Of a stretch of 64,000 nt of DNA, positions 2,085 through 40,255 are shown one piece after another. Both the position numbers and the translations under genes were made by a program. Each line of letters begins with the position of its first letter. Positions within the stretch are counted from its first letter, which is position 1. The stretch is taken from NCBI RefSeq assembly GCF_030684315.1, contig NC_081359.1:36900470-36964469 (forward strand), in the 5' to 3' direction. The DNA comes from Stegostoma tigrinum (lineage: Eukaryota). The notes below the pieces were generated by a model that did not search any database, was not told the DNA's origin, and saw only the letters and a program-made list of their open reading frames with translations.

Positions 2085-3101
2085 AAAGTGGAGCTGACAA
2101 AGCATAGCTGGTCAGACAGTATCTGAGGAGCAAGAAAGTCAACATTTGAGGATGAAACTGGATCGGGCAGGGGGACGGGAGCCCAGAGATAAATAGAGGG
2201 AGGTGGGTGGGGTTGGGGAACAGTAGGTGAGGTGGAGATAAGTGGATGTAAGTAGGCCATTATTATAGTTGGTCAGTGGGTAGGGTGGAGTAAATAAGTG
2301 AGTTAGAAGATGGACTGGTGGGGGAAGGAGAGATTTTGAAGTTGGTGAAGTCAATAATCATTGGGCTGTAAACTCCTAAGGCTTTGTTCCTCCAGTTTAC
2401 ATTTGGCCTCATGCTGACAGTGGAGGAGGCCCAGGCTGGACATGTCACAAGGGGAGTGGGAAGGTTGATGGCAACCAGAAGGTGGTGTTGATTGGTCTGT
2501 GCAGTGCACAGATGCTCCTCAAACTGGTCCCCGAGTCTGTGATTGGTCCCCACGATATAGAGGAGATCACATTAGAAGCAATGAGTACAGTAGATGAGGT
2601 TTACTGAGGTGCAGGTGAATCTCTGCTGAATTTGGAAGGATTGTTTGAGGCTTTGGATGGAGGTGAGAGGAGCAGGTATAGCGCCTCCTGCAGCTGCAGA
2701 GAAGAATCTGGGTATTGTGGAAGGGTTAGTTGGGAGTGTGGAGCTGACGATGGAGTTGTGGAGTGAATGGTCCCTGCTGAAAGTGGACAGGGTTGAGGAG
2801 GAAGAGAGATAGTAGGAACTGCAGATGCTGGAGAATCTGAGATAACAAGGTTTAGAGCTGGATGAACACAACAGGCCAAGCAGCAGCAGAGGAGCAGGAA
2901 AGCTGATATTTCAGGCCTAGAATGACAGCTTTCCTGCTCCTCTGATGCTGCTTGGCCTGCTGTGTTCATCTAGCTCTACACCTTGTTATCTAGGGTTTGA
3001 GGAGGGAAATATCTTTTTGGTGGTGGGGTCTAATTGTTAGTGGTGGAAATGTCGGAGGATGATGCATTATGTTTGGAGGTTGGTGGGGTGGTGCGTGAGG
3101 G
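2085..3101 (-). mobile_element. Decayed Penelope-like element (GIY-YIG region and 3' end), interrupted at 2804-2991
   Basis: Minus-strand ORF fragments RDHSLHNSIVSSTLPTNP, QRFTCTSVNLIYCTHC and RLGDQFEEHLC are homologous to the intact PLE ORF at 26204-27568. Confidence 0.85.
2804..2991. mobile_element. Miniature fold-back PLE 3'-end insertion
   Basis: Minus arm 2804-2920 (with tail) is joined to plus arm 2921-2991 (no tail). Flanked by agggttgaggaggaa (2789-2803) and agggtttgaggagggaa (2992-3008). Confidence 0.8.
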
Positions 3102-5345: not shown

Positions 5346-5973
5346 TCCATTTGTCCGTTTTTAAATTCAAATCACAGATTAAAGCCCAGGAGTTGAAATT
5401 TCACCTGCTTTTATGATCAAACAAGTTTATTGCCAAATTACACAACAGCTAATCTGTTACTGGTCCATTTTCGTATAAAATAAAAACATTGGGCAAGTAT
5501 TTAGGATTGAACTGACTTTATTTTCTGTCACCTAATCATATCTTAAGCATGACCCAAGACACTTCAAGCATAACCAAACCCAATTCATAATTTATAAACT
5601 GCTTCTGCAGTGTAGTTATTGTTATGTGGACAGATACAGCATTTATTAAAGTAAGTTATTTCGAAAACATTATAGCAAATGATCTACTCAAGCAGTCATA
5701 ACCACAACCATTCAAAGCTGCAAACTTTATTGAAATTTGCTATTTTCTAACAATTTATTTTCCCTCAACTACTATTCCTATTGCTGGTAGTTTCTACAAA
5801 CAAAAGACAAATTGATTGAATAGAACATGTACATGGCGGCCACAGATCATATCGCGAATCTAGATTTCAGTCGCATCATTCAGTTTTTGCAGGCTTGTTT
5901 AATTCGAGAGCTTTGCATTGTGATGTTAAAGGTTTCGACTTTCTTTCCATTGCAAAGATGGCCAGGAGTTTCT

Positions 5974-6384
5974 TTGGAAGAGTCTTCACGGTAGAGTTAT
6001 AAGTCACTTGGAGATAGCAAGAACTGAGCAGGAGAGTGGATATTTTGGGCCTAGACCCTTCATCAGGAACCTTGCCCAGTCCTGATGAAGGGTCTAGGCC
6101 AGAAATGTTAACACTCCTGGTCGTCTGATGCTGCCTAACCTACTGTATTCCTCCAACTCTACACTGTATTGACTCTGGCTCCAGCATCTGCAGTTATTGC
6201 TATATTTGAGTGACTTATAACCCAACAGTGAAGGCTCTTCCATGAATGGCCCAGTCCTGAGGAATTATCCAGGCCCTAAATGTTGACCCTCCTGCTCCTC
6301 TAATGCTGCCTGACATGCTGTGTTCCTCCAGCTCCGCACTGTATCAACTCTGATTCCAGCACCTGCAGTTCTTTCTATCTCGCT
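5974..6384. mobile_element. Non-coding composite element of three hammerhead-bearing PLE 3'-end units (retrozyme-like)
   Basis: 16-bp TSD atggccaggagt(t/c)tct at 5958-5973 and 6385-6400. One inverted unit (5976-6068) plus two direct units starting gcccagtcctga at 6074 and 6249. Confidence 0.75.
6082..6110 (+). ncRNA. Minimal hammerhead ribozyme motif (slightly degenerate)
   Basis: CTGATGA-A-GGGTCTAGGCCA-GAAATGTT. Confidence 0.55.
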
Positions 6385-7817
6385 ATGGCCAGGAGTCTCT
6401 CTCACCCTTACCATCTTTTATTGGCATGTGTTGGAAAAACCTCCAGGTTGGTACCCAAATGGTTTGTCCATGTTACCAACTTCTGGGTTAAGACTTCAAC
6501 TAAGAGCTTCTGGTTCATGTAGCTACCTTGGCAAAAGACCTCCTTAAGGAGATATGCAAGGTCAAATAACTTACACCTTGATTTCAAAGCTAAGAGGTAG
6601 AAAATCCCATCAGGGCTGTTTTAATTTGTAGTAATGCAATCGTTATCCATTAAGTTCTTGTCATATGCTATACTGACCATATGGCATCAGAGTAAACCGT
6701 TGATCATTCTGACACAAAATCTAATTGTAATGAATTCAATTCAAAAGTTCTTTTACAGTCAAATGGATCATACTCTAATATTCAGAACTTGGCAATTAAT
6801 CTTTTTAAGAGTCATAATTAGTTGTGAGCTTGACTATCACAACTTATTAATTTAAAGCTTTTTTTAGATTTGGCATGTTTGAACGTTTACAGCATCATAG
6901 CTGTATAGATTCATACTGATAAGAGGTGAGAGAGATATCACTGGAGAAATGCTCTTTTTCCACAAACTCAGTGATTAAAACATTGCAGTCCATTCTATCT
7001 TCTTTGTTCTTTGTCTATATTCAAAAATAATTGGCTGCTGAACAGGTTTTCAACAAAAAGATATTCTTTTTCTCAACTGATCAAACCTGTCTATATCTAC
7101 TCCAGAAAAAAAAATTGAGAAAATATTCATAAATTTTAATACATTTCCTATAGTATTGCTCCCAGTAAATTGAACAATGTGCTGTTTTTTAATGGCGACA
7201 TCGTATACAATGCCTTATTTCAGTCCTAAGTTAGGCCCATATTTAAAATGGTCGATCATTTCAAATGTTGATTACTATAAAAAAACAGTTTGATTGCTTC
7301 GTTGTGAGAGCACTTTGATAACTTGAACGTGCTTCTCAATGACTAGCTGCAGCTCAAAAGCACTCACTGCTTTAATATTGCCTTGCAGTGGCAAAGCATG
7401 ATACCTAGAGCGTGATAATTATGCGCGGTACAATTACTAACCCCAAGTTTCCCTTTTATTTTGTTCAGTGCAATACAATCTGATCAATAATTTAAGACCT
7501 GTAGGCAATGCGTGTATCCATTCAGTTGATGAATAAATTGCAGCCAGACCAACAAATTGACTCTACTGTTAGAACAACACAGTTACCCCAAAGAAAATGC
7601 CTTTGCTACCCAACTATGTTGTCACCTGGACTCAAAACATTACTTGCCGTCTCTCCATGGATACTGCCTGATCCATTGTGATTTCCAGCATTTTTTTTGT
7701 CTTCAATATGCTTTTCATGGGATAGTTTCCAAGATGTGATAAAAGACTTGACAAACAGTAGCCAGTTTTCCATACTTATTTCATCAGGCACCTGGAGTTT
7801 TTTTTTCCTTCGGTACA

Positions 7818-9954
7818 TCATCATCAGGCAGATTCTTTGCTTGCGAAGATCAGTTGGGAAGAGATTCGTCAGCGATTTCGTTGGCACAACTGTTGGTGGC
7901 TGTAGAGTCCTATTCTGGACCTGCAGATCCTGGGGCAGTGCGGGCAGGGGAGTGCTCCGGACAGCAGGGCTTGAGATGAGGGCTTCTTCCTGCGTTTCCG
8001 TCTGTCCTCTGCAGCTGCTCTCCTCGAACATTCGAACTGCTCCGTCACCGTCGTAGTTTTCTTCCGCCATGCGTCCCTGTCAGAGGCCAGCTTTTGCCAT
8101 TCCGTTGAGATGATGCTGGCCTGAGACAGCCGTTGCTTCAGTTGGTCCTTGTAGCGCTTGCGCGGGGCACCGCGGTTTCTTTTGCCGTCGCTGAGTTCCC
8201 CGAAGAACACTGTCTTGGGTATTCTGGTGTTGTCCATCCGCGATACGTGACCCGACCATTGAAGTTGCTTCAGGAGAAGGGTTGCTTCGATGCTGGGGAG
8301 CCGGGCCTTTTCCAGCACTTCGTTGTTAGAGACGCGGTCCTGCCAGGTGATGCCCAATATAGAGCATTCCAGCAGCTGCATCTGTTTCCAATACAGAACC
8401 CAGGCCTCGGAGCCGTAGAGCAGTGTGGTGATGACCGCGGCCTTGTAAACCTGGATTTTCGTCGACATGCTTATCGAGTGGTCTCCCCATTCACGCTTCC
8501 GCAGTCGCCCGAAGGCGCTACTTGCTTTCGCAAGGCGATTGTCGACGTCTCCTGTGACTGTAGCATTGTTGGAGATAATGCTTACCAGGTACGTGAAACG
8601 TTCAACCGTGTTGAGGCAGTGGCCGTCGATCGAGATTCGTGGTGGGTTGTATGCGCTGCATGGTGGTTTCTGGTACAGGATCTCTGTCTTCTTCAGACTG
8701 ATCGTTAGCCCTAAAGCCTTTGCAGCTTTGGAGAAGTGGGTCACTGCAGTCTGTAGCGCATCTTCTGTGTGTGTGAGTAGGGCAGGATGCAGCCGTCCAC
8801 ATACAGCAGCTCCATGATGGGCTCCTGCGTTGTCTTCGTGCGAGCGAGGAAGTGGCGCAGATTGAAGATATTGCTGTCCGGGCGGAAGTGAATGTGGATG
8901 CTGTTCGTGATGCCCTCCTTTGCTTCCTGCAGCATCATGTTGAAGAAGATGGCGAAGAGCGTTGGTGCCAAGATGCAGCCCTGTTTCACGCCATTGCTGA
9001 TGGGGAACGGGTGTGATAGGTCACCGTTGTATTTCACCTTGCCGCCCTGACCTTCATGAAGTTGCTGCAGGATGGTTAAGAACTTAGGAGGGCATCCGAG
9101 CTTCCTCATGATTTTCCATAGACTGTCGTGGCTGACAGTATCAAAGGCTTTGGTGAGGTCAATGAATGCCACGTACAGTCCAACGTTCTGCTCACGGCAT
9201 TTCTCCTGAAGTTGGCATAGTGTGAAGATCATGTCAGATGTGCCTCTGTTCGCTCTAAAACCACATTAACTTTCTGCCAGGTTGTCCTCCGCAATGATGG
9301 GAATCAACCCATCCAAGAGGATTCTGGAGAGAATCTTCCTGGCCGTAGACAGCAGAGTGACACCTCTGTAGTTCGAACAGTCCGATTTCTCACCCTTGTT
9401 CTTATACAGGGAGACTATTACAGAGTCACGTAGATCAGCTGGTACCTCACCCTGTTCCCAACAGAGTGCAAATAGGTTGGTGAGTTCACTCAGGAGTGAA
9501 GCTCCTCCTAATTTGTATACTTCTGCAGGGATTCCGCTGATACTGGGGGGCTTTGTGGAGTTTCAGCTTAGAGATGGCGGATTGAACCTCATCCAGCGTT
9601 GGTAGACGGTCGAGTATGGATCTGATGTCCTGCTGCGGGATTCTCTTGATGGACACAGTTTGTACTTGGCAATTGTCCACGAAGAGGTTCACGTAGTGTT
9701 CTGTCCATCGCTCTATGATGGCTTCTTTGTCAGTAAGCAAACTAGCGCCATCAGCAGATCGCAACGTGGCCTGAAGTTGGCGGGTCAGTCTATACATCGT
9801 GCGCAGAGACTCATAAAAAGCTCTGGTGATGCCAGTGTCTGCATACTGCTGTGTTTGTTCTGCCAGTTTTGACCACCAGTCGTTTTGCATCATTCTGAGG
9901 TTGGCTTGCAGGGTACTGCATGCAGCTCTGTATTCTGCTTTAGCTGCTTTATCG
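7818..9954 (-). mobile_element. RTE-clade LINE, 5'-truncated, frameshifted ORF2
   Basis: ORFs 9486-10055, 8741-9232 and 7869-8744 contain FIDLTKAFDTV, GVKQGCILAPTLF, LLYGSEAW, WSGHVSRM and a C-terminal CPHCPRICRSRIGLYSH zinc finger. The 3' tail is (gat)n. TSD tccttcg(a)gtaca at 7806-7817 and 9955-9967. Confidence 0.93.
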
Positions 9955-12514
9955 TCCTTCGAGTACAGATCCCAGTGAAACTGATGCCCTTTGAAATATG
10001 ACTCCAATGACGTAACAATCAAATGGCACTCAAAGAGCTGAGGGCTTTCTGCCATCTGATGTCAAGCCCTTGATATTTAATTCTGAAGGGAAGAAAAATA
10101 ATAGATGAAATGTTGCCTGGAAAGGGTTTTTTTTTACAGATTTGAAGCCTCTCCAACTGAATGGTTTCTGTTGGGCAAGAAATTCATGTAGTTGTGCTGT
10201 TTTATATGAATAGCAATTTTCTGATGAAGTTGTTCATGTCGTTTACAGTTTACAACTGTAGGACCATTAGATGGTAGATGTTCCTATTTTCCATACCTGA
10301 GAAATATTGGATTCCAAGAAACAAATAAAAGGAATGACATCTAGTATTCCCATTCACTGCCTCTATATATTATCAAAGGATTTCGGGAAGAAATTGCAAC
10401 TCAAATCACTAGACTTCCATCTGGAGTAAATTGCGGCTAAGCAGAAGCATTTTAAAGAACCATGAGCCAATATTCTGGTTACTCTACCTCAGTTTCCACA
10501 GAGGAATTTTACAGACAGTGCATATTGTTATTGTCAAGTGAGAGGGAGGAATCAGCTCCCCCTTTTTAACCCCTCTTGATTGATTACAACAATCTTTTTT
10601 CCGTTTCAATATGCAGCAATCACACTTCAGTTGAAAAAAGAATATAATTAACAAGATCATAATGAAAATGCCAATTGTAAAGTTTTCTTGTAGGAAAGAA
10701 AGCGGAATTCTTCATACCTAACCCTGAAAAAGGCTAATGAGTGTAACATCAAACACATCCAAAAACACAGGCAATAGTTTTAAAATGGGAAAAGTGTTTG
10801 GTGCAGTCAGCAAACATAAAGACTGTGTAGTTTGAAGTTCTTTGCAGTCCTTGAGGTGCTAGATTTTTAATTTGAGACCACAATTGTTTAATTACTAATT
10901 GATATTCTCAGTGCTGACAACATTTGTAAATATTTCTCAGTAACTAGTCGCTGCTCAATTTGCTTTTTTATTGTTTTCATTGTGCTGACAGAAACAGGCA
11001 GGGAGACAAAGAGTCTTTCAATCCTTGCTGTTACCAATCCATGTTATTTTTGTCCTCTGCTGCTCAAAGCAATGGATTCTTGAGAATAACATCATTGCCT
11101 CTGCAAGCTGAATACTCAACAGGCAAATTTCACGTATTAGACAGGAAATGTTCATGGAAATGTGAATTGAAATAAAAATGCAAATTTGTCAGTGCTAACT
11201 TCATTGCTTGCTTGCAGAGTGTTTGAAAATAATGGTAATTTCACTGTAGGATGTTTTGCTTATTGTAAATGGGGTTCGTGGACTTGCTTGATTAAGACAG
11301 CCATTTTAGGTTAATATTGTCCTTTTCTAAAACCACTATTCTGTCCAGTAAATGTCTTAGGTATAAGAATCAGATGATCAAATTTGAAATTCAACAGTCA
11401 ATATCTACTACTATCATAACAAGATGAAAGCAGAGAGGTATGCAAAGGTATGATGGTTAATGCAGTGTTTTCCTGCCCATAGGAGTTATCCACATTAGAG
11501 TGGGCAGATAAGGGAGCAGCAAAGTTGCATACTCCCAGGCCTATTGAGGCCCTTAAATGGTGAAATAAAGGCCAATAGTTGAGGGCTTACTACGGAGCTC
11601 AGTAGCAATATCAGCTCTCACAGCAATTGGTAAAGGGAAATATTCAGAACAGCGTAAAATGTATTCAATCAGCCTTTTTTCAAAATGTGACTCAGCTTAA
11701 CTAGCACTTCTACATAACATCTTCATCAAGCGTTAATAGGTATGCTGTTCCAAATTCAAATTTCCCCAAGTCTATTGTGCTGATCGAGCATAAATGACGT
11801 TGGCATTGACTGGACTTAATAACTTTATATATTTGAGATATTCTGAATTCTTTGTAGAGCTGATGAGAGTTGAGACCCTCTTGGAAACATTAATGGCCTG
11901 AGGAATATGCAACACCATAAATGCACAAGTGAAATCAAAAATCAATTTGCTGAACATCATTCTTGTAGAAACTCAAATTGTCCACATCAAATCTGATTAT
12001 GCCTAGGTACTGCAAGAACATTTGAAACTCGTAGATTCATTCACATCCATTAACCAAATGCCAAAAGATGCTTACAAAGCTGTAAATGATGAGGCTTCTA
12101 CTTTCAAACAGCTTAAAGCTGACAAAACAAAACAATAGTATATATCTGCAGAAAGAACAATGACTAATCAGAGTTTGGCACCAAGCAATTTTCTTTCCGC
12201 GGTTTCTGAATTGCATTGTAATTCAGATTGCATATGCAGGGAGTGTGTTAGTTTGCTTCAATTTCAAAGTATTACTGCTTGTGTAATTTTGATCTTAGAA
12301 TGAAAGATGATTTGTTGATATTCAGTTACCTAATGGAGAAAATGTAGGTTTTTTTTATCATACATAACTCTGCTGCTTACTGTTTACTATCTAATCGAGA
12401 AATATAATTTATTTGTTTGTTCCATTTCTGCAAAGCCGGTACAGTTCAAAGGAATTTAATGACTGCAAGCTTAGTATTTTTAACAGTCGTACTAAACAAA
12501 CATTTTTGGGTATG

Positions 12515-20094: not shown

Positions 20095-21510
20095 AGAGTC
20101 ATAAAGTAATAGTGTCTTACAGATCCATCGGCCCAAACTTGTCCATGCCGACCAAATGCCCATCCACACTAACCCCATTTCCGTGCAATTGGTCCATATC
20201 CTTCTAAACCTTTCCTATTTATGTGTTCATCCAAATGCCTTTTAAATGTTAATGTACTGTTGGCAACTCATTCCATATCTGTACCATTCTCTGTGTAAAA
20301 AACTTGCCCCTCAGGTTTCCATGCATTCTTTCCCCTCTTACCTTAAACTGATGCCCTCTAACCTTCAATTCCCCAAGCCTGGGAAAAAGACTGAGTGAAT
20401 TCACCCACTCCATGCCGCTCACGATCTTATAAGATACCTCCTCAGTCTCTTATGCTCTAAAAAAAAGTCCTAGCTAGTCCAAAGTCTCCCGATAACTCAG
20501 CCCCTTGAGGTCCTGGCAAAATCCTTGTAAATTTTTTTCTGTACTCTTTGCAGTTTAATAGCATCCTTCCTGTAGCAAGGTGACCAAAACTGAACACAAT
20601 TCTGTGCTCCTGAGATGCTGCTTGGCCTGCTGTGTTCATCCAGCCTCACATTTTATTATCTTACAATTCTCCAAGTGCGGCCTTTCCAATGTCCTGTACA
20701 ACTGCAACACAACTTCTCAACTTCTATACTCAATGCCCTAACTGATGAAGGCCAGTGTGCTAAAAGTCTTCTTCACTGGCCTGTCTACCTGTGATTCCAC
20801 TTTCAGAGAACCGTGCACCTGCACTCCAAGCTTCCTCTGTTCCACTATACTGCTTAAGACGCTATCATTCACGATGAAATGCTTACCCTGACTTGACTTT
20901 CCAAAGTGTGACACCTCACACTTGTCTATATTAGACTCCATTTGCCATTTCTCAGCCCACTTCCCCAGATGATCAAGATCCTGCTGAAATTTCTGATAAC
21001 CTTCCTCACTGTCCACGGTACCACCTATTTTATTGTTTTCTGTGAACTTACTAGTCGTGTCTCATCCAAATCATTGATATAGATAACAAACAGCAGTGGA
21101 TCCAGCACCAACTCCTGAGACACACCACTAGTCACAGGCCTCCAGTCCAACAAGCATTCTTCCACTATTACTGTCTGCTTCCTACCATCAAACAAATTGT
21201 GTACCCAGTTTACGAATTCTCCCTGGATTCCAGGTGACCTAACCTTCCAGATCAGCCCACACTGTGGAACCTTATCAAAGGCCTTACTGAAATCCATATA
21301 GCCAATGTCTACCATCCTGCCCTCATCAACCTTCTTGACCACTTCATCAAAAAACTTTAACAAATTTTTGAGGCATGATCTCTCATGCATGAGGTCACCC
21401 TGACTTCTAATCAAACCTCGTCTTTCTATATGCTTGTATATTTTATCCTTCAGAGCCTTCCTAAGTAACTTGCGTACCACAGATGTTAAAGTTATTGGTC
21501 TCTCATTCCC
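20095..21510 (-). mobile_element. CR1/HER1 LINE, 5'-truncated ORF2 to 3' end
   Basis: ORFs contain YMDFSKAFDKVP, VTSGVSQELVLDPLLFVIYINDLD and QQDLDHLGKWAEKWQM. A 3' tail is present at ~20095. Confidence 0.92.
20604..20662 (+). mobile_element. 59-bp PLE 3'-end micro-insertion inside CR1
   Basis: gtgctcctgagatgctgcttggcctgctgtgttcatccagcctcacattttattatctt matches the PLE 3' end near 33747-33805. 8-bp TSD acaattct at 20596-20603 and 20663-20670. Confidence 0.85.
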
Positions 21511-22300
21511 AGCTGCTGTGTTGATTTTGACCTTGAAGCTTTTTTTTGATTCATATGATGGTCACCGTTATACACGGTGACAGAGGTTGGCAATACAATA
21601 GGCATGGCCATCTTTCAAAACATGCTTTTGCTTTGTTGACTGTACTTCATTGATATGTTTGTGTACATTTAAACAGCTTCCCTTACTGTCAGGGAGATGG
21701 TGTTGTATCAGCTATGCCTTGTTCTGGGGTCTGGGTTACCATTTGAGACCAAATCTTCTGCACCCATGCACAATGTTATTTGATGCCATGTGTTTTACGA
21801 ATGTTTTGAGTAGATGCGACAAACTGCATCTGTGACAGATCTTAGTGGTTTTGTATACTTTGCTAACCATAGCAATAGTGCTTCTACATCTATTATGTAA
21901 TTTGTCTGCAACAACAGCTTCATGCCAGTATCCATCTTCTACAAAGGCATCAATGGTATGGACCCTTTTCATATTCAGAAGATCTCTCCTGAAGGTTTTG
22001 ATTAGTATAGAGATGTAGAAGTGACTACTAATTCAGTTCACCTCTGAGTTTTTATTTAAAGCAAAGCCTTTGCTGTGGCTTCTTGCAATCATTGTCTTCG
22101 TGTTTAATCTGCATGACATGCATTGCAGTGTGTGATTTTGGAATCTGATATTTGATATTCTTGAGCTGGTCTTCAATTGTTCTTCAGAGTTTCTCCCTGT
22201 TTCCAAAATTATACTTGGAAAGACTGGATGCACTTATTCTACGTAAATCCTCCTTGTCTATAGCATATAATATTTTCAGAGATCAGCTCTCTAGATCATT
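21511..22300 (-). mobile_element. Ancient Gypsy-like gag-protease remnant (part 1)
   Basis: ORF 21736-21972 has CHRCSLSH...HGCRRFG, resembling tandem gag zinc knuckles. Minus-strand FKVKINTAA near 21511-21540 resembles the protease motif FK.DTGA. Confidence 0.5.
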
Positions 22301-24194: not shown

Positions 24195-24890
24195 CATTGT
24201 TACACCATGCCACTAATAATTCTATCTCTTTCCTGCATTCTGCCTCATCATTTGAGATCCGCCCTGCAATAGTGGTTTCATCAGTGAATTTGCTGATGAA
24301 GTTAGGCCCGGAATTTGACCACAATGTCATGAGTGTGTAGGAGAATAGTAGGGGGATGAGTATGCAGCTTTGCAGGGCACTGGTGTTGAGGATTCTCATA
24401 GGAGATGTTGTTGTCTGTTCTCACTGATTTCAGTATGTGGGTCCAGTTCCAGAGGGTGGAACAGAGACTTAGGTTTCGGAGTTTGGAGATTAGTTTGGTT
24501 AGAATTATGGTGTGCAAGACAGAGCTATAGTCAACAATTAGAAGCCTGATGTAGGTATCCTTATGATCCAGCTGTTCCAGGGAGGAGTGTCAGGCCAGGA
24601 AGGTGGCATCTGCAGTGGACTTGTTGTGACAGTAGGCAAATTGCAGAGGATCAGGCATGCTGGAAGGGTAGAATTGATTTGAGCCATGATTAATGTCTCA
24701 AAGCGCTTCATAATTTTAGAGGTCAAAGCCACTGGATGGTAGTCATTGAGACACTCCGCATGAGTTTTCTTTGGCACCAGGATGATGGTGGTCTTCTTGA
24801 AGCAAATGGGGACTTCAGACAGTAGCAAGGAGAGGTTAAAGACATCAGCAAATACTCCTCCTAGCTGATATGTGCAGTTTCTGCGTGTCG
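24195..24890 (-). mobile_element. Rex1/Babar-clade LINE RT fragment
   Basis: ORF 24538-24897 QLGGVFADVFNLSL...CFKKTTIILVPKK...CLNDYHPVALTS.IMK.FE, plus ISKFTDETTIAGRIS. Confidence 0.85.
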
Positions 24891-25199
24891 AAATCATGAG
24901 TTTAACATTTTTTTAAGATATATTGCATACTAACTGTGAAACATTACATAACTGTCCCTGTGGCTCCTTGATCTTTATCTCCAAGTCACTTATGTGTTGT
25001 AACACTCCTTTATTAATATCTGTACATTATAAGTTATCAAATATAACTCTCCAGGGCAGTTTCAAAAGATTATGTCATCAAATTCTCATTGTTGACTGGT
25101 GATTTTTCTCACACTGATGTCAAAGTGATTTGATTATTTACAATATCATGATTTGCATGAATCTCATAACAGAACAATCAATATTCAGAGCACCATTGC

Positions 25200-25580: not shown

Positions 25581-25944
25581 TTTCCATCTTTTCAATGTCT
25601 AGTTGCCCACTTCATTTCGAAATTTGTCCCGACATTGATATGGAGTAGAAACTTATGCAATAGAAGTATATTGAATATTCGCTTCAGTCCTTTCATTGTT
25701 CTGTCAACTGTGCGTAATATTTGTTAGAAGCAGAAGAGCCTGACAATATATTGGCTCCTTTCTCCAGAGATCTGAAGTTAGATAACAATTTTTCCAACTC
25801 AGTTGAGTAACCTTAAGAACTGTCCACCATCACCTATGGATTGAACCATTTATATTTACACTAAAAACATGCTTCCAATTATTAGGTAATAAAATGTGAG
25901 GCTGGATGAATGCAGCAGGCCCAGCAGCATCTCAGGAGCACAAA

Positions 25945-25980
25945 AGCTGACGTTTCGGGCCTAGACCCTTCATCAGAGAG
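25945..25980 (-). ncRNA. Minimal type-I hammerhead ribozyme motif (best-preserved copy)
   Basis: The minus strand reads ctct-CTGATGA-A-GGGT-CTAG-GCCC-GAAA-CGTC-agct. This gives a full catalytic core, a 4-bp stem II, a loopless palindromic ACGT stem III and a GUC cleavage triplet. Confidence 0.75.
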
Positions 25981-26203
25981 GGGGATGGGGTGAGGGTTCT
26001 GGAATAAATAGGGAGAGAGGGGAAGGCGGACTGAAGATGGAGAGAAAAGAAGATAGGTGGAGAGGAGAGTATAAGTGGGGAGGTAGGGAGGGGATAGGTC
26101 AGCCCAGGGAAGACGGACAGGTCAAGGAGGTGGAATGAGGTTAGTAGGTAGCTGGGGGTGTGGCTTGAGGTGGGAGGAAGGGATGGGTGAGAGGAAGAAC
26201 AGG

Positions 26204-27568
26204 TTAGGGAGGCAGAGATAGGCTGGACTGGTTTTGGGATGCAATGGGTGGAGGGGAAGAGCTGGGCTGGTTGTGTGGTGCAGTGGGGGGAGGGGACGAA
26301 CTGGGCTGGTTTTGGGATGCAGTGGGGGAAGGGGAGATTTTGAAGCTGGTGAAGTCCACATTGATACCATTGGGCTGCAGGGTTCCCAAGCGGAATATGG
26401 GTTGCTGTTCCTGCAACTTTCGAGTGACATCATTGTGGCACTGCAGGAGGCCCATGATGGACATGTCATCTAAAGAATGGGAGGGGGAGTGGAAATGGTT
26501 CGCGACTGGGAAGTGCAGTTGTTTATTGCGAACCAAGTGGAGGTGTTCTGCAAAGCGGTCTCGAAGCCTCCGCTTGGTTTCCCCAATGTAGAGGAAGCCA
26601 CACCGGGTACAATGGATACACAATACCACATTGGCAGATGTGCAGGTGAACCTCTGCTTAATATGGAAAGTCATCTTGGGGCCTGGGATAGGTATGAGGG
26701 AGGAGGTGTGGGGGCAAGTGTAGCATTTCCTGCGGTTGCAGGGGAAGGTGCCGGGTGTGGTGGGGTTGGAAGGCAGTGTGGAGCGAACAAGGGTGTCACG
26801 GAGAGAGTGGTCTCTCTGGAAAGCAGACAAGGGTGGGGATGGAAAAATGTCTTGGGTGGTGGGGTTGGATTGTAGATGGCGGAAGTGTCGGAGGATGATG
26901 CGTTGTATCCGGAGGTTGGTGAGCTGGTGTGTGAGAACGAGGGGAATCCTCTTTGGGCGGTTGTGGCGGGGGCGGGGTGTGAGGGATGTGTTGCGGGAAA
27001 TGCGGGAGACGCGGTCAAGGGCGTTCTCGACCACTGTGGGGTGAAAGTTGCGGCCCTTAAAGAACTTGGACATCTTGGATGTGCGGGAGTGGAATGTCTT
27101 GTCGTGGGAGCAGATATGGCGGAGGCGGAGGAACTGGGAATAGGGGATGGAATTTTTGCAGGAGGGTGGGTGGGAGGAGGTGTATTCTAGGTAGCTGTGG
27201 GAGTCGGTGGGCTTGAAATGGACATCAGTTACAAGCTGGTTGCCTGAGATGGAGACTGAGAGGTCCAGGAAGGTGAGGGATGTGCTGGAGATGGCCCAGG
27301 TGAACTGAAGGTTGGTGTGGAAGGTGTTGGTGAAGTGGATGAACTGTTCGAGCTCCTCTGGGGAGCAAGAGGCGGCGCCGATACAGTCATCAATGTACCG
27401 GAGGAAGAGGTGGGGTTTGGGGCCTGTGTAGGTGCGGAAGAGGGACTGTTCCACGTAACCTACAAAGAGGCAGGCATAGCTGGGGCCCATGCGGGTGCCC
27501 ATGGCCACCCCCTTTGTCTGTAGGAAGTGGGAGGAATCGAAAGAGTAGTTGTTGAGGGTGAGGATGTG
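26204..27568 (-). CDS. PLE polyprotein, C-terminal part: RT (QTKGVAMGT, RYIDD), linker, GIY-YIG endonuclease; no true start codon
   Basis: About 450 codons with no stop. Motifs KGVAMGTRMGPSYA, LRYIDDC, FLDL, CNRRKCYTC and NVVLCIHCTRCGFLYIGETKRRLRDRFAEH. The ORF-track start codon lies in the TSD/flank. Confidence 0.85.
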   Translation of the reverse strand, partial: HILTLNNYSFDSSHFLQTKGVAMGTRMGPSYACLFVGYVEQSLFRTYTGPKPHLFLRYIDDCIGAASCSPEELEQFIHFTNTFHTNLQFTWAISSTSLTFLDLSVSISGNQLVTDVHFKPTDSHSYLEYTSSHPPSCKNSIPYSQFLRLRHICSHDKTFHSRTSKMSKFFKGRNFHPTVVENALDRVSRISRNTSLTPRPRHNRPKRIPLVLTHQLTNLRIQRIILRHFRHLQSNPTTQDIFPSPPLSAFQRDHSLRDTLVRSTLPSNPTTPGTFPCNRRKCYTCPHTSSLIPIPGPKMTFHIKQRFTCTSANVVLCIHCTRCGFLYIGETKRRLRDRFAEHLHLVRNKQLHFPVANHFHSPSHSLDDMSIMGLLQCHNDVTRKLQEQQPIFRLGTLQPNGINVDFTSFKISPSPTASQNQPSSSPPPTAPHNQPSSSPPPIASQNQSSLSLPP

Positions 27569-27804
27569 TTCCAATTATTAACCTATTTCCTATGGATTTC
27601 TGTATTTCATTTGCACCTCAAAAAACATTTTGATATTTTATTCAATTTTTTGATAACTCCCAGTTGTGAACATACAGTCCAAGTTGCAAAATTGCTGTTT
27701 AAATTTACTGAAGTAAACAGTACTGTTTAACTGAAACGTACTCTACTGTTTGGATCGTTGTCTTTTATATCAAAATTATGTTGCTACATAGTACACAAAA
27801 TGAC

Positions 27805-29940: not shown

Positions 29941-32090
29941 ACTGGAAGGAGTTTCACTCACTCTATGTTCAGTGTGGCATATAACTATATGCAACAATTA
30001 ATGTAAGTCAATGCTGAGTTTCCTGATGTCTTTGTTATAGAATAAAATCATAAAATGCTTACAACACAATATAGGGCCAACAACAATTCAGATACACCGA
30101 CTTTTCCATTTATTAATACCAAAACCTGAAATTATTTTCTACTCAGGTGCTGAGCAATTCCTCGCTGAAAGCTACAACTGATTCTGCCTCCATTATCTTT
30201 TCAGGAAATTTGTTGCACAACATACCCACTCACTGTGTAAGCAAGAAGTCTTGCTTATGTCACCAAAGTTTCATTTGCCATTCACCTTAAATCTATGCCC
30301 TTTTCTAGTAAGACCCACATTTCAATGACTGCTTGTAGGTCTTATATGAGCCATGCAGTTCTGGAAATTTACAACAAAAGCTCACTCATGACAGAAGCAT
30401 CATTAGTTTCTTGGATAGGTTATCACTGGGCTTCTTCAATCAAAAGAGAATCCAACTCTCAAATGAGGAGCCCAATGAACACTGGACACAGAGGCTGAAA
30501 AAAAAGTGTTCAAATGGCATTATGTAGCAAAAATTCAACTGAATGCAGAATATTCTCAGAGCCTGTTGACTACCTAAAGGACAAGAAATCACCTGACCAG
30601 AGGAAACAGACCCCTCACGTAACAATATACCACATGTAACAACAATGTGAAACCCAAAACAATCTAATGTTACATTATCTTGTTATGGGTGTGATTCCAA
30701 AAACTCGTATCAGCCCAAACAAAACTATCCAGCCTCTTATGAGCAATACACTCATATTGAGGACAAGGAGGACACTTCTCATAGAAATGTAATAGTCTGA
30801 AAGTCATGTTGACCATTAAAACAAACCTGTTTCAAAGCTAACGTGTATATTCATGCTTTGGAATAGCATCTTGAAGAAGATTTCAACACTGCAAAGGAAC
30901 ATGTATTTTCATGAGGTGTAGCTACCTACAGAGAAGCTATATTACTCTTCTACAGGATGTTGAGACCAAAACATATATTTGTACTCAATATGAAAGATTA
31001 CTGGTTACTTATAACATGCGTTTTCAATGTGGTTTCAACATGCAACAGTCCGTTAAATATTTGAACTGCAGAAAGTTTCAGATCAGATGCTAAAACAGTC
31101 ATTTCTACTAAACATGGGGCATCATCTAAGATAACTGTGACACTGGCACCAGCATCCAGATTAAATCTGTGCAGATAACAGTTTACTTAGATGACCACTG
31201 TCAAAACAACTTCATGGCTGCCCTCATCTTCCTGCACAATGTGTATAAATTCACATTCACTATGAAATGTGATGTTCAGTACAGAAATCTCAAATTATTC
31301 ACCAGGCTAGGAAAGCTGGAAAAAACCTATTAAACTATTTTAAAGACTAATTCCAGACCAGTCGATCTCTTTAAACTGAGGAAGATCCTTCACTCATCAA
31401 CTGAAGAAAAAAGTACAGAAATAATTGAATAATTCGGCCGCTACTGAGTCATCACTCTGGTGGCTGAACCTACAGAATGACACAGGGATATGATTGCATT
31501 TCTCAAACTCGGCAACTCTATATGAATTTGAGTTGTTCTCATACAAATCTAGAAAGCAATTGGTTCAGTGTACATCCATTATCTACAGCTGTTAAAATCT
31601 GGATAAGTTTTGACCAATAGCATGTTGTCAATATTGCATGTCAATAATGGGTTTGGACAGCTCCCTATGGCTGAGACCCTTGAATCTCCACCACCTTAAT
31701 TTCCCTTATTGGATGATACTTTTTCAATAACATAGCTTTTGTTGTAGCTTTTGCCTTAAAGTTTTTCCAACTCATGTTGTCCGAAGCTTTACAACATGGC
31801 ATGATAAGCCACATAGATAATATACAATACATGCTGAAAGCTCCTAGTTCAATAACAGCACACAATGTTCTGTACATTTTACAAGCATCAAGTCTTACGT
31901 TGACTGACAAATGTGACTCTTCTTTTAATGTTATAAAGCCAGAGAGATGTACGGCACAGAACCAGATCCTTCGGTACAACTTGTCTATGCTGACCACATG
32001 TTCTAAAGTAATCTGGTCCAATTTGCTATAATAAAATGTGAGGGTGGATGAACACAGCAGGCCAAGCAGCATCTTAGGAGCACAAAAGCT

Positions 32091-32118
32091 GACATTTCGG
32101 GCCTTGACCCTTCATCAG
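32091..32118 (-). ncRNA. Minimal hammerhead motif
   Basis: The minus strand reads CTGATGAAGGGTCAAGGCCCGAAATGTC. Confidence 0.6.
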
Positions 32119-33711
32119 AGAGGGGGATGGGGTGAGGGTTCTGGAATAAATAAGGAGAGAGGGGGAGGCGGACCGAAGATGGAGAGAAAAGAAGATAGGT
32201 GGAGAGAGTATAGGTGGGGAGGTAGGGAGGGGATAGGTCAGTCCAGGGAAGACAGACAGGTCAAGGAGGTGGGATGAGATTAGTAGGTAGATGGGGGTGC
32301 GGCTTGGGGTGGGAGGAAGGGATGGATGAGAGGAAGAACAGGTTAGGGAAGCAGAGACAGGTTGGACTGGTTTTGGGATGCAGTGGGTGGAGGGGAAGAG
32401 CTGGGCTGGTTGTGTGGTGCAATGGGGGGAGGGGACGAACTGGGCTGGTTTAGGGATGCAGTTGGGGAAGGGGAGATTTTGAAACTGGTGAAGTCCACAT
32501 TGATACCATTAGGCTGCAGGGTTCCCAGGCGGAATATGAGTTGCTGTTCCTGCAACCTCCGGTTGGCATCATTGTGGCACTGCAGGAGGCCGATGATGGA
32601 CATGTCATCTAAAGAATGGGAGGGGGAGTGGAAATGGTTTGCGACTGGGAGGTGCAGTTGTTTGTTGCGAACTGAGCGGAGGTCTCCCGCATTTCCCGCA
32701 ACACATCCCTCACATCCCGCCCCCGCCACAACCGCCCAAAGAGGATCTCCCTCGTTCTCACACACCACCCCAACAACCTCCGGATACAACGCGCCATCCT
32801 GCGACACTTCCGCCATCTACAATCCGACCCCACCACCCAAGACATTTTTCCATTCCCACCCCATCTGCTTTCCAGAGAGACCACTCTCTCCATGACTCCC
32901 TTGTTCGCTCCACATTGCCCTCCAACCCCACCACACCTGGCACCTTCCCCTGCAACCGCAGGAAATGCTACATTTGCCCCCACACCTCCTCCCTCACCCC
33001 TATCCCAGGCCCCAAGATGACATTCCACATTAAGCAGAGGTTCACCTGCACATCTGCCAATGTGGTATACTGCATCCACTGTACCCGGTGTGGCTTCCTC
33101 TACATTGGGGAAACCAAGCGGAGGCTTGGGGACCGCTTTGCAGAACACCTCCGCTCAGTTCGTAACAAACAACTGCACCTCCCAGTCGCAAACCATTTCC
33201 ACTCCCCCTCCCATTCTTTAGATGACATGTCCATCATGGGCCTCCTGCAGTGCCACAATGATGCCACCCGTAGGTTGCAGGAACAGCAACTCATATTCCG
33301 CCTGGGAACCCTGCAGCCTAATGGTATCAATGTGGACTTCACCAGTTTCAAAATCTCCCCTTCCCCAACTGCATCCCAAAACCAGCCCAGTTCGTCCCCT
33401 CCCCCCACTGCACCACACAACCAGCCCAGCTCTTCCCCTCCACCTACTGCATCCCAAAACCAGTCCAACCTGTCTCTGCTTCTCTAATCTGTTCTTCCTC
33501 TCACCCATCCCTTCCTCCCACCCCAAGCGGCACTCCCATCTACCTACTAACCGCATCCCACCTCCTTGACCTGTCCGTCTTCCTTGGATTGACTTATCCC
33601 CACCCTACCTCCCCACCTATACTCTCTCCACCTACCTTCTTTTGTCTCCATCTTCGGTCCGCCTCCCCCTCTCTCCCCATTTATTCCAGAACCCTCACCC
33701 CATCCCCCTCT

Positions 33712-33739
33712 CTGATGAAGGGCCTAGGCCCGAAATGTC
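33712..33739 (+). ncRNA. Minimal hammerhead motif
   Basis: CTGATGA-A-GGGC-CTAG-GCCC-GAAA-TGTC. Confidence 0.65.
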
Positions 33740-36694
33740 AGCTTTTGTGCTCCTGAGATGCTGCTTGGCCTGCTGTGTTCATCCAGCCTCACATTTTATT
33801 ATCTTGGATTCTCCAGCATCTGCAGTTCCCATTATCTCTCGTCCAATTTGTTAGTTTTTTGCCCATATCCCTCTCAAACATTGCTATTCATATACCTATC
33901 CAGATGCCTTTTAAATGTTGTAATTGTGCCAGCCTCCACCACCTCCACTGGTAGCTCATTCCATACATGCACCACCTTCTGCGTGCAACAGTTGCCCCTA
34001 AGGTCCCTTTTAAATCTTTCCTCTCTCACCTTAAACCTATGCACCCTTGTTTTGAATTTCCCTACCCTTGACAATTCACCCTACCAATGCCTCTCATGAC
34101 TTTATAAACTTCTACAAGGTCATCCATCAGCTTCCAATGCTCCAGGGAAAATAGCCCCAGCCCATTCAGCTTCTTTCAATAGTTCAAATCCTCCAACCCT
34201 GGCAACATTCTTGTAAATCTTTTCTGAACTCTTTTGTGTTTCACAACATCTTTCCTATAGCAGGGAGGCTAGAATTGAATGCAATATTTCAAAAGGCATC
34301 TAATCAATGTCATATGTAGCCATAACATGATGTCCCAGCTCGTATACTCAATGTATTAACCAATAAAGGTAAGTGTATCAAATGCCTTCTTCACTATCTT
34401 GTCTAACTTGGACCCCACTTTCTGGTCCTCTCCTGATTTTCCCTACTAAACTGCAGCATTACCTAAATTAAACCCCTCTGCCACTCCTCAGCACATTTGC
34501 CCATCTGACCAACAGTGATTCCATTCATTTCCTAGATGACGTAGCCCACAAAAATGGGATACAAGCCGATCACCAGAAAATGAAGGCAGTCAAAGACTCT
34601 GCAATGTCACACATCAATGAATGAACTTCAACAATTTCTGGGTTTGATGAATCGATACTTTTACCAGAAATCTTTTCTGTCATAGAATCTTTATGAATCT
34701 CTTAAAGAAATCATAAGATTGGTATTGCTATACGCAACAATGGCTGGCATTTCAGAAGATTAAGGACATGCTAACCTCCACTGGTGTCTTAGCTCATCAT
34801 GTGCTATGGTTGTTGCAGCAGACATATCAACCACAGTTATTGGTGTGCACTTTTTTTCAGGAACGGAAAACATTATTGAAAACCCTGTACTATGCTTCAA
34901 GGGTGATAGCAGAAAGCCAAAACACCAGTGTTGAGAAAGAGGCATTAATAGTTATATGCTGTGTCTCAAAACAATAATTGCAACTGATCACAAAACCTTG
35001 GTCTCCCTGCTCGATGAAAATGACTTTTAAAAAACACCTCTTCATATATAAAACTTTTGCCTCAGATGCAAACAATTCTCAAGCAAGATTCAATATGTCC
35101 AAGACACATACCAATCATTGGCCAACACTGCTTTACGAATTATGGTTGATGCACCCACATAAAATGACTCTAATTTTGGGGTTGAAGCACTGTCTTCCCG
35201 TAGAGAATGTATAATCATGGCCAGTCTCTATAGAAAAACTTAATTAGAAAGGAACAAAGCAAGGATCTTGAGTGCTTTATTACGTAAAAGTATTGCATCC
35301 CAAAAAGACTTGGAGTTCAGCCCATGGAATGTATCATAAAGTCTTACTTTAAACACAGTTTTCAATTCTTTATTGTCATGAATTTATTGGTTTTCAATGA
35401 TCGACTGGTAATTTCCCCTTCAGTCTTTAAAACGTTCACCAAACATACTTAGGCATAACCAAGAGCAGGGTAAGAGCATGTGAGACCATCTGGTGACCTA
35501 GAATCTTGAAAGAGTTAGATGACCAATTTATCAATGAGATACATTTGCTATGTACAGTTATGAATGACAGGAACTTTTCATTCCTACTGAATTTCCTGAT
35601 AGATCTTGGATCCATTTGGGCATGGAACTACTTTTGTATATCCTTTAGAGAAGTATTTCCTTCCTTGATTTGGCCATGTTACTCCAGACCCAGAGCATTA
35701 TTGACAAGGTGAGCCCAGCATTCTGGTATTGGTGGATTCAAAGCAGGCAACAGTGAGGCAGTGGCTGTGGAGATTTGGCCTAATGGCATAAGATGGTGTT
35801 TGAAGAGTGGCATCTTTGATGTTGGTGGGGCCCAATGTAGATGATGGCAAGTCATTGGAGGAGGGATGGTGGTGTGGGTGTCGTTAATGAGCTGGCTTAG
35901 GGCTGATGGATTCTGTTTCAGCTGTGTCTTCCTAACTTTTCTCTTAGTCTTAAAACTGTTCAAAATGGCACAGGATTGTGGTGATATTGGAAAAGCTTTT
36001 CACTGTATCTTATTATTTTTCTCACTATAAAATACATGTGACAATAAAATCATTCATTCAAGGTGCTGTAAATGCTGTCAGGCATAGGTAACAAATACTG
36101 GCGTAATCAGCATACCGGCATCCTATGAACGTTTTCTTCAATTGTCAATGTGGTCAATTGTTACTTTAGATGGTTTGAAGCTAACAACTTGAAATCAGCA
36201 AACACTGAAAGGATTATCACAGCCATACAGAAGATGTTTGCCATTCACAGTATTCCAGATGCTGTTACTTCCGACAACAGACCATCGTTTGCTAATGAGA
36301 TATTTTAAACAATTGCAATGATTCTGGTCTACCAACAAATTACAAACATACCTAGCAGCTCTGCTGAAAATTTGTTGAAAGTAAATCATATTTTTCCTGC
36401 TCTTTTCTGCTCATTCACCACTCTAATCAAATTTCTTGTTCCCATCAAATCTGATGGTAGGGTACAAATTGAAAATTCAACTCCCTACTTTGTTCAGCAG
36501 CTTGATTCCAAGAAAACGAATAGAGTGATTCAGATTGTTTCTGAGAAAGAATGCTATTCCTGGAGTAAGCACCTGCGAGACTGCAATAATCATTTACACA
36601 TCTTAATGTTGGTTGTATCAGATCATAGCCAACTGGTCTAGATAACAGGAAGGCCACAGTCAGAGAGTAACTCTGTTTGGTCTGGAAGGCCATA

Positions 36695-38494: not shown

Positions 38495-40255
38495 CCATAA
38501 GGCCATAAGAGCATAAGACATAGGAGTGGAAGTTAGGCCATTCGGCCCATCGACTCCACGCCGCCATTTAAATCATGGCTGATGGGCATTTCAACACCAC
38601 TTCCCTGCACTCTCCCTGTAGCCCTTGATTTCTTGTGAGATCAAGAATTTATGGATTTCACCTCGAAGGCATTTAATGTCCCGGCCTCCACTGCACTCCG
38701 TGGCAATGAATTCCACAAGCCCACCACTCTCTGGCTGAAGAAATGGCTCCTCATGTCCATTTTAAATTTACCCCCTCTAATGCTAAGGCTGTGCGCACGG
38801 GCCCCAGTCTCCCCGCCTAATGGAAGCAACTTCCCAGCATCCACCCTTTCTAAGCCATACATTATCTTGTAAGTTTCTATTAGATCTCCCCTCAACCTTC
38901 TAAACTCTATTGAATACAATCCCAAGATCCTTAGCCTTTCATCGTATGTTAAACCTGCCATTCCAGGGATCATCTGTGTGAATCTGTTGGACTCGCTCCA
39001 GCGCCATTATGTCCTTCCTGAGGTGTGGGGCCCAAAATTGGACACAGTATTCTAAATGGGCCCTAACTAGAGCTTTATAAAGTCCCAGAAGCACATCGTT
39101 GCTTTTATATTCCCAACTTCTTGAGATCAGCGACAACATTACATTCGCTTTCTTAATCATGCTCTCTACCTGCAAAGTAACTTTCAAAGAATCCTGTACC
39201 AACACTCTCAGATCCGTTTGTACTTCTGCTTTACAAATTTTCTCACCGTTTAGAAGATAGTCCATGCCTGCATTCTTTTTTCCAAAGTGCAAAACCTCGC
39301 ATTTGCTCACGTTGAATTTCATCAGCCATTTCCTAGACCACTCTCCTAAACTGTCTAAATCATTCTGCAGCCTCCTAACCTCCTCAGTACTACCTGCCTA
39401 TCTTCGTATCATTGGCAAACTTTGCCAGAATGCCCCCAGTCCCTTCATCCAGATCGTTTATATATTAAGTGAACAGCTGCGGCCCCAACACTGAACCCTG
39501 CGGGACACCACTTGTCACTAGTTGCCATTCTGAAAAAGAGCCTTTTATCCCAACTACCTGCCTTCTATCAGACAGCCAATCCTCAATCCAAATCGCATAC
39601 CTGACTAACTAAATCACCAGCGCAATTCATGACACCCCAACACTCACGGACCAACAATCTTTTATCATCATGACGTAAACCTAACACCCATATGTTTCAT
39701 GTGACTCTCGCACACCTAACACCGTTGTCAGCTTCACAATCAGATCTTAGGACCACACTGCCAACCTTTTATCTCTGGTAGCTATATCACTAAAAAACCT
39801 TGAACACCATGGGCCCTCGCCCTACTCATCAGCCTCCAATGGGGCACCTTATCAAAGGCCTTTTGGAAGTCTAGATAGATAACATTCACTGGGTTTCCCT
39901 GGTCTAACCTACTTGTTACCTCTTCAAAGAATTCTAACAGGTTTATCAGGCACGACTTCCCCTTACTAAATCCATGCTGACTTGTTCTAACCGACCCTGC
40001 ACTTCCAAAAATTTAGAAACCTTATCCTTAACAATGGATTCTAGAATTTTACCAACAACTGAGGTTAGGCTAATTGGACTATAATTTTCCATCTTTTGCC
40101 TTGATCCTTTCTTAAACAAGGGGGTTACAACAGCAATTTTCCAATCATCTGGGACTTTCCCAGACTCCAGTGACTTTTGAAAGATCACAACCAAAGCCTC
40201 CGCTATTTCCTCAGCCACCTCCCTCAGAACTCTAGGATGTAGCCCTTCAGGGTTC
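38495..40255 (-). mobile_element. CR1 LINE, 5'-truncated ORF2 to 3' end, containing a templated insertion
   Basis: ORFs contain GLHPRVLREVAEEIAEAL, WKIAVVTPLFKKG...NYSPISLTSVVGKILE, LEYCVQFWAP and RRLRGDLIETYKI. The tail is (cataaga)n. Confidence 0.93.

What the first reader, a model, noticed from the sequence alone, without database searches (positions are those of the whole stretch)
5958..6400. TSD-flanked non-coding element with three hammerhead units and a 175-nt tandem period (retrozyme-like)
Seen: a 16-bp TSD (5958-5973 / 6385-6400) brackets ~410 bp with no RT or endonuclease sequence. Two direct units start gcccagtcctga at 6074 and 6249 (period 175 nt), each hammerhead + PLE 3' unit + tail. 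Between them lies a ~40-nt spacer (gagtgacttataacccaacagtgaaggctcttcc) that I did not see in other PLE copies here. A third, inverted unit (5976-6068) includes the reverse complement of that spacer. It forms a perfect 21-bp hairpin with the first direct unit (6048-6068 / 6080-6100, 11-nt loop). Established: minimal hammerheads with a loopless stem III act as dimers, and metazoan non-LTR retrozymes are short tandem hammerhead repeats that yield small circular RNAs. Inference: this is a fossil of a PLE-derived, PLE-mobilised non-autonomous unit whose ~175-nt monomer could be released by cleavage at both ribozymes. The second core is now degenerate.
Basis: partly seen in the sequence, partly recalled or inferred. 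Interest (0 to 1): 0.7.

Follow-up and report, generated by a model that had tools for sequence, protein, structure and literature searches.

The report
Decayed mini Penelope retrotransposon insertion
This 411-base insert is an old, decayed scrap made of three short copies of the end of a very common jumping gene (a Penelope-like element), its 'spacer' is likely that family's well-known short tail, and its ribozyme motifs are damaged, so it is ordinary rather than a new circular-RNA element.

Summary
The anatomy is real. A 15/16 target-site duplication brackets an inverted unit and two direct units 175 nt apart. All three units are 3' ends (pLTRs) of an abundant Penelope-like element (PLE).

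The 'spacer' is not locus-specific. In public contigs it has about 13-125 times single-copy depth and directly follows the pLTR end. That fits the optional 30-40 nt PLE 'tail'. Depth falls to about 2-10 times at the spacer/unit-2 junction, close to the 3-6 times of the right flank, so no sizeable family of 175-nt tandem monomers is seen.

All three hammerhead cores carry lesions, two of them at G12, so the present sequence could not release a monomer. The 21-bp perfect stem is expected by chance (P about 0.16). A related species carries the insert at the same site, so it is old.

Inverted pLTR + direct pLTRs + tail + TSD is the published Penelope layout, and two other TSD-flanked head-to-head PLE insertions lie in this window. 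I could not show directly that the ORF follows the spacer in full-length elements.

Verdict: a minimal member of a known kind, not a retrozyme.

The parts
5958..5973 (+). left copy of the 16-bp target-site duplication
   Evidence: 15/16 with 6385-6400; chance 2 of 20,000 random pairs
5975..6010 (-). tail (the 'spacer') of the inverted unit, ending at the left TSD
   Evidence: 30/36 identical to 6207-6242; depth about 47-125x single copy at 5988-6010 and 8-24x at 5965-5987
6011..6068 (-). inverted pLTR stub with a 69-nt internal deletion (junction 6026/6027) and a decayed minimal hammerhead (G12>A at 6046)
   Evidence: alignment; sequence
6069..6079 (.). 11-nt loop at the head-to-head inversion centre
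   Evidence: other genomic copies align across this centre with 1-5 nt shorter loops (table 4)
6074..6206 (+). direct pLTR unit 1; minimal type I hammerhead core at about 6078-6113 (C3 at 6082, predicted cut after 6109), with C11.1>A and a GUU triplet
   Evidence: majority letters C at 6101, 6106 and 6109 (table 3)
6207..6248 (+). tail (the 'spacer'), 6 nt longer than the inverted copy and ending in ATG (6246-6248); likely the PLE sequence that follows the pLTR
   Evidence: depth about 13-36x single copy at 6218-6240, falling to 2-10x at 6241-6263; the ORF-start reading is weak
6249..6381 (+). direct pLTR unit 2 without tail; hammerhead core at about 6253-6288 with G12>T (6277) and altered stem II
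   Evidence: 105/134 identical to unit 1; pLTR depth 1e4-1e5 x single copy
6385..6400 (+). right copy of the target-site duplication
25860..27574 (-). reference only (separate insertion): 5'-truncated PLE with an RT + GIY-YIG ORF followed by a related pLTR with an intact minimal hammerhead core
   Evidence: 53% identical to full-length RT proteins such as P0002; its pLTR matches unit 1 at E=2e-8

Best explanation
The insert is three short, decayed copies of the 3' end of a Penelope-like retrotransposon inside one target-site duplication, likely laid down in a single insertion event, with the 'spacer' likely being the family's ordinary 30-40 nt tail. Shown: the anatomy, the PLE identity of the units, the multi-copy nature of the spacer, the damaged cores, and the presence of the insert in a related species. 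Inferred from published PLE biology: the element's GIY-YIG endonuclease cut the target with a 16-nt stagger. Its RT copied a stub from a pLTR 3' end (unit 2) and stopped just upstream of the hammerhead. It re-primed at the internal start site behind a pLTR (the tail end), giving unit 1 plus tail. It then made the head-to-head inverted copy plus tail that is typical of the family. The copy was dead on arrival and has since decayed by about 10% per arm. The hammerheads are passengers, and no monomer cycle is needed. I put about 0.85 on 'ordinary PLE insertion, spacer = tail' and about 0.6 on this particular route.
For: Units match 15 other pLTR pieces in the window at E<1e-4, one of them ending an RT + GIY-YIG ORF. 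Contig depth runs from 1e4-1e5x single copy in the pLTR to 47-125x in the proximal tail, 8-36x in the distal tail and 2-10x at the junction with unit 2: an optional extension. Majority letters at two spacer positions come from 10-27 contigs per run (table 3). Loose ends behind the pLTR end begin with the first letters of the spacer (141-229 contigs per run; agreement only 0.42 over 30 letters). Published layout: inverted pLTR + two direct pLTRs + 31-bp tail + 9-bp TSD (PMC3846280); 30-40 bp tail (PMC8557442); tail ends are RT initiation sites (PMC11167929). Of 3 other head-to-head PLE insertions tested in the window, 2 have TSD-like repeats (2790-3005, 11/12; 32012-33850, 13/14; none found at 55150-57755). 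Contigs align across the same inversion centre with shorter loops (table 4). Organism B holds both flank junctions and the centre at about 5% divergence (table 8).
Against: No full-length element of this subfamily was obtained, so 'the ORF follows the spacer' is not shown (searches gave none). Contig depth is not a copy number, and copies under 80% identity are not counted. No empty site was seen (15 of 118 joints were shown), so the TSD rests on sequence alone. No listed contig spans the whole insert. Both direct units begin with the same 12 bases, which a tandem template would also explain. A tail between two direct units is less often pictured than a tail at an insertion end.
Confidence: 0.6

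Rival explanations
1. A canonical longer Penelope insertion (inverted pLTR + pLTR + ORF + pLTR) that lost nearly all of its ORF, by a template switch during insertion or a later microhomology deletion, joining the ORF start to the 3' hammerhead. The spacer is still the normal sequence behind the pLTR.
For: Same layout as Pen2a of Adineta vaga, and internally deleted derivatives are described there. The direct spacer runs 6 nt beyond the inverted tail and ends in ATG. The following bases are 3 edits from P[SNT]L[KR][KRT]L, the N-terminal pattern of related PLE proteins (MP[SNT]L[KRT] in 25 of 67 N-terminal hits). Unit 2's clustered stem II changes could be ORF-derived.
Against: 56 of 2,749 window ATGs (2%) do as well, the plain hammerhead of unit 1 scores 4 edits, and the test was post hoc. 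Unit 2 aligns to unit 1 without gaps from its first base.
Confidence: 0.22
2. Fossil of a non-autonomous retrozyme-like family in which a 175-nt pLTR+spacer monomer was cut out by two hammerheads, circularised and re-inserted as tandems.
For: Two direct hammerhead-bearing units at 175 nt, within the 51-972 nt range of vertebrate non-LTR retrozymes, which are argued to derive from pLTRs (bioRxiv 10.64898/2026.07.22.740005). Both units share the same start. Non-coding and TSD-flanked.
Against: Junction depth is only 2-10x single copy, near the 3-6x of the right flank bin. Only 1.75 periods at 78% identity, no TRF call. The cores are minimal PLE-type and damaged. They fail the 'two consecutive complete motifs' criterion. 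A read-through RNA is predicted to bury hammerhead 1 in a long hairpin (MFE -170, z -7.1). PLE minimal hammerheads cleave poorly even as dimers and are dispensable for insertion in vitro.
Confidence: 0.07
3. Two successive insertions: a tail-bearing head-to-head palindrome (5975-6242) landed at the 5' edge of an older TSD-flanked stub (unit 2).
For: PLEs are said to insert into or next to existing copies (PMC6765202). The palindrome is a self-contained unit of a kind seen elsewhere in the window.
Against: No second TSD is evident around the palindrome. The three pairwise identities are alike: 78%, 82% and 81%.
Confidence: 0.07
4. The spacer is host DNA captured behind one donor pLTR (3' transduction) and spread with that donor's offspring.
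For: Capture of host DNA by PLEs is documented. Tens of copies would fit a small sub-lineage.
Against: Its length (36-42 nt) equals the canonical tail. Its first letters lead the loose-end consensus of 141-229 contigs per run. It is multi-copy in both organisms.
Confidence: 0.04

Closest known systems
Penelope/Poseidon-type EN+ PLE insertions with inverted pLTR, direct pLTRs, tail and TSD (Pen2a_Av, PMC3846280; Fig. 2 legend of PMC8557442)
   Same: Inverted pLTR adjacent to a direct pLTR, a second direct pLTR, a 30-40 nt extension, and one TSD around all.
   Different: No ORF between the direct pLTRs; the tail is present twice (inverted end and between the direct units); TSD is 16 bp rather than 8-10 bp; total only 411 bp.
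Minimal type I hammerheads (min-HHR) of metazoan PLEs (PMC4209133)
   Same: CUGAUGA, an extra nucleotide before stem II, GAAA and a loopless palindromic stem III; dual motifs on opposite strands 100-700 bp apart are described there.
   Different: All three copies here are decayed. The two opposite-strand motifs are only 11 nt apart.
PAc 'tail' from internal initiation of reverse transcription (PMC11167929)
   Same: A 30-40 nt extension behind the pLTR, with two end points a few bases apart in the two copies here.
   Different: In PAc the tail lies 111-118 nt inside the ORF and the hammerhead overlaps the start codon. Here the tail appears to end at or before a possible ATG (untested).
Metazoan non-LTR retrozymes (PMC7229834; bioRxiv 10.64898/2026.07.22.740005)
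   Same: Short non-coding direct units each bearing a type I hammerhead; pLTR ancestry.
   Different: No sizeable family of the monomer, only 1.75 units, minimal rather than canonical cores, cores broken, an inverted arm present, no RNA evidence available.

Membership tests
Penelope-like element insertion (EN+ PLE, pLTR stub) | Units homologous to the 3' end of an RT + GIY-YIG element | tested here: met
   Pfam itself gave no hit on P0001, so identity rests on homologs and visible YIDD and GIY-YIG-type motifs
Penelope-like element insertion (EN+ PLE, pLTR stub) | Direct and/or head-to-head inverted pLTRs | tested here: met
Penelope-like element insertion (EN+ PLE, pLTR stub) | Target-site duplication | tested here: met
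   15/16; 2 of 20,000 by chance; empty site not seen
Penelope-like element insertion (EN+ PLE, pLTR stub) | Optional 30-40 nt tail shared by a fraction of copies | tested here: met
   36-42 nt, multi-copy at far lower depth than the pLTR, in 4 of 4 runs
Penelope-like element insertion (EN+ PLE, pLTR stub) | Tail equals the sequence behind the 5' pLTR of full-length elements | tested here: inconclusive
   no full-length DNA obtained; ORF-start test weak
Minimal type I hammerhead of PLEs | Intact core (C3-A9, G12-A14, G10.1-C11.1, palindromic stem III, UH) | tested here: not met
   all three copies have lesions; the family majority and window copies at 25,976 and 55,243 are intact
Non-LTR retrozyme | At least two consecutive tandem units with complete hammerheads | tested here: not met
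   unit 2 has G12>T, unit 1 has C11.1>A; criterion; no TRF array
Non-LTR retrozyme | The monomer forms a dispersed or tandem family | tested here: not met
   junction bin at 2-10x single-copy depth against 13-36x for the spacer and 1e4-1e5x for the pLTR; rough measure, 80% identity floor
Non-LTR retrozyme | Canonical (not minimal) type I hammerhead with loop 1/loop 2 contact | tested here: not met
   motif is PLE minimal type; no Rfam hammerhead hit
Non-LTR retrozyme | Expressed as linear and circular monomer RNA; self-cleaves | not testable with these tools
   needs RNA data and a bench assay

The most novel reading that the evidence does not exclude
The locus is the last trace of an extinct small family of non-autonomous pLTR+tail units that were copied as 175-nt tandems: a retrozyme caught at birth from a Penelope end, older than the split of organisms A and B.
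Probability: 0.07. Interest if true: 0.5.

Novelty: new member of a known kind. Interest (0 to 1): 0.14.

Why it matters
It matters little alone. It is a compact example of the tandem, inverted and tail structures that PLE insertion is known to leave. It also warns that pLTR-tail-pLTR stubs can look like hammerhead retrozyme dimers in genome scans. A genome-wide census of such stubs could map where PLE reverse transcriptase stops and re-primes, which is still poorly defined. If the tandem monomer were a real family (about 7%), it would support the proposed birth of animal retrozymes from PLE ends.

Tried and rejected
No whole genome is held for this window, so the genome-wide search was replaced by one read-laying run.

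Rfam gave nothing at gathering score in 64 kb and only hairpin-type chance hits locally.

Searches for full-length DNA of the family failed. The metagenome scan with a spacer motif gave 58 loci, 0 of 58 with pLTR or PLE-protein similarity. Two viral scans and one prokaryote-genome scan with pLTR motifs gave 0 hits.

Protein searches gave no close full-length protein (best full-length hit 53%). One search used too strict a cut-off and returned 1 hit. One search gave only fragments at 65-72%. The N-terminal profile search returned only more distant families. No stored protein carried a spacer-derived peptide ahead of its Met.

No RNA holder was listed; this is no evidence either way.

No empty-site joint appeared among the 15 of 118 joints shown. 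The 'goes back' and 'skip' joints that I checked are in register with the 175-nt offset and look like mapping switches between units 1 and 2.

Rejected: special conservation of the 21-bp stem (P=0.16). Rejected: a miRNA or potC identity (far below gathering scores). The two direct units alone fold no better than shuffles (z +1.2).

Literature searches listed no paper on this family. The supplements of the 2026 bioRxiv paper, which include one cartilaginous-fish genome, were not seen and may bear on this.

Full report
OBSERVATION. The coordinates hold. A 15/16 direct repeat (5958-5973 / 6385-6400) brackets 411 bp. Such a match within +-10 nt of two chosen ends arose in 2 of 20,000 random pairs. 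The two direct units (6074 and 6249) are 105/134 identical without gaps. The inverted arm 5975-6068 pairs with 6080-6242 at 78/95, with a 69-nt deletion, and the two spacer copies are 30/36 identical. The perfect 21-bp stem is only the centre of that palindrome and is expected by chance (P=0.16). Tandem Repeats Finder reports no array here, and Rfam reports no hammerhead.

WHAT THE UNITS ARE. They match 15 other pieces in the window at E<1e-4. One of these ends a 5'-truncated ORF (26204-27574, minus strand) that is 53% identical to full-length RT proteins and shows YIDD and GIY-YIG-type motifs. Pfam itself returned nothing for it. The units are therefore pLTR stubs of an endonuclease-bearing PLE. 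The repeat resembles those of cartilaginous fishes; that is recalled, not tested. Head-to-head inversion is a family habit. I tested 3 other inverted PLE insertions in the window, and 2 have TSD-like repeats (2790-3005 and 32012-33850). In public contigs, other copies align across the same inversion centre with loops 1-5 nt shorter (for example 8-23 contigs per run for a 2-nt shorter loop at 6070, table 4). Truncation just upstream of the hammerhead is thus common, which explains why both direct units start at about the same point.

WHAT THE SPACER IS. No genome is held. I laid 4 of the 19 listed runs (two of organism A, two of organism B) on 5850-6510 at 80% likeness. I used locus-specific contigs as single-copy depth. 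Depth was about 9,000-175,000x in the two pLTR bins examined, 47-125x in the proximal tail (5988-6010), 13-36x (6218-6240) and 8-24x (5965-5987) in the distal tail, and 2-10x in the bin holding the spacer/unit-2 junction (6241-6263). The right-flank bin 6402-6424 gave 3-6x. The tool warns that depth is no copy number, so these are orders of magnitude, and copies under 80% identity are missed. Two spacer positions show a majority letter that differs from the window, in 10-27 contigs per run. Loose ends behind the pLTR end start with the spacer's first letters (141-229 contigs per run, agreement only 0.42 over 30 letters). So the spacer is a repeated, optional extension of the pLTR, while the tandem junction is rare. 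This fits the PLE tail: a 30-40 bp extension at insertion ends (PMC8557442, passages) whose ends are internal RT start sites (PMC11167929, parts 1-2 of 4). I could not show that the ORF follows it. Collection scans gave only chance hits or nothing, and protein searches gave no close full-length member. The direct spacer ends in ATG followed by bases 3 edits from the N-terminal pattern of related PLE proteins (25 of 67 hits), but 56 of 2,749 window ATGs do as well. That is only a hint.

AGE. Organism B carries the insert at the same site. Contigs cover the left junction (8/172 and 5/99 differences), the centre (4/107) and the right junction (8/158 and 8/138), about 5% in all. The arms differ from each other by about 18-22%. 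If they were identical at insertion, the event is several times older than the A/B split (inference). One mismatch in the TSD is compatible with this (P=0.10-0.19). No listed contig spans the whole insert, and no empty site was among the 15 of 118 joints shown.

RIBOZYMES. The family core is a minimal type I hammerhead with an extra base before stem II and a loopless palindromic stem III (PMC4209133, parts 1-2 of 4). It is intact in window copies at 25,976 and 55,243. Here, unit 1 has C11.1>A and a GUU triplet, the inverted unit has G12>A, and unit 2 has G12>T and an altered stem II. G12 as the general base is established knowledge (recalled; one search shows only a guanine general base and a reference title on G8/G12). 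In a dimer, each active site uses one unit's core and the other unit's cut site. The present sequence could therefore give at most one weak cut near 6284 and no monomer (inference). A transcript entering from the left is predicted to bury hammerhead 1 in a long hairpin. In PAc, hammerhead mutants still insert in vitro.

MECHANISM. The most likely history (inferred) is one PLE insertion event that strung together three short cDNA stubs: unit 2, then unit 1 plus tail after re-priming at the internal start site, then the inverted copy plus tail. Neutral decay followed. The main rival is a longer canonical insertion that lost its ORF. Both make the spacer ordinary PLE sequence; together they carry about 0.8-0.85.

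COMPARISON. The layout is that of Pen2a_Av: two direct pLTRs, an adjacent inverted pLTR, a 31-bp tail and a TSD, with internally deleted derivatives described (PMC3846280, passages; also PMC8969392, passages). Non-LTR retrozymes are tandem families with canonical hammerheads, expressed as circles (PMC7229834, passages). They are operationally defined by two consecutive complete motifs and argued to descend from pLTRs (bioRxiv 10.64898/2026.07.22.740005, parts 1-3 of 5; supplements not seen). This locus fails the tested retrozyme features, though it has the kind of structure from which one could arise. Two earlier unchecked notes of this scan on another genome reached similar readings for two-arm palindromes; they were a lead, not support.

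VERDICT. Real, old and ordinary: a new member of a known kind, interest 0.14. The retrozyme-birth reading keeps about 7%.

Noticed in passing
window 2790-3005: Head-to-head pLTR palindrome (no tail seen) with an 11/12 direct repeat at its ends, apparently inserted inside an older PLE ORF remnant.
   Followed up: partly
window 32012-33850: Young head-to-head inverted PLE insertion with endonuclease-region ORF parts in both arms and a 13/14 or longer TSD.
   Followed up: partly
window 55150-57755: Another inverted pair of PLE pieces; no TSD found within +-40 nt of my guessed ends.
   Followed up: partly
window 26222-26335, 32363-32474, 33356-33467, 57331-57413: A 39-nt tandem repeat (2-3 copies) at the 3' end of the PLE ORF, encoding a Pro/Ser/Gln-rich tail.
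   Followed up: no
window 5956-5969 and 6113-6126: The TSD and flank are 12/14 complementary to unit 1 just behind the hammerhead cut site (I8); this may be chance or target microhomology.
   Followed up: no
window 7869-10061, 21025-21561, 24538-24912, 38641-39397: Fragments that read like LINE reverse transcriptases of other families (family names would be recalled, not tested).
   Followed up: no
protein P0309: A protein from an unrelated record starts like a PLE ORF and within about 60 residues runs into what reads like a translated hammerhead region, hinting at internally deleted mini-PLEs in other animals.
   Followed up: no
protein P0001 (window 26204-27571, minus): No Pfam hit at E<=0.001 despite clear homology to RT + GIY-YIG proteins.
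   Followed up: no
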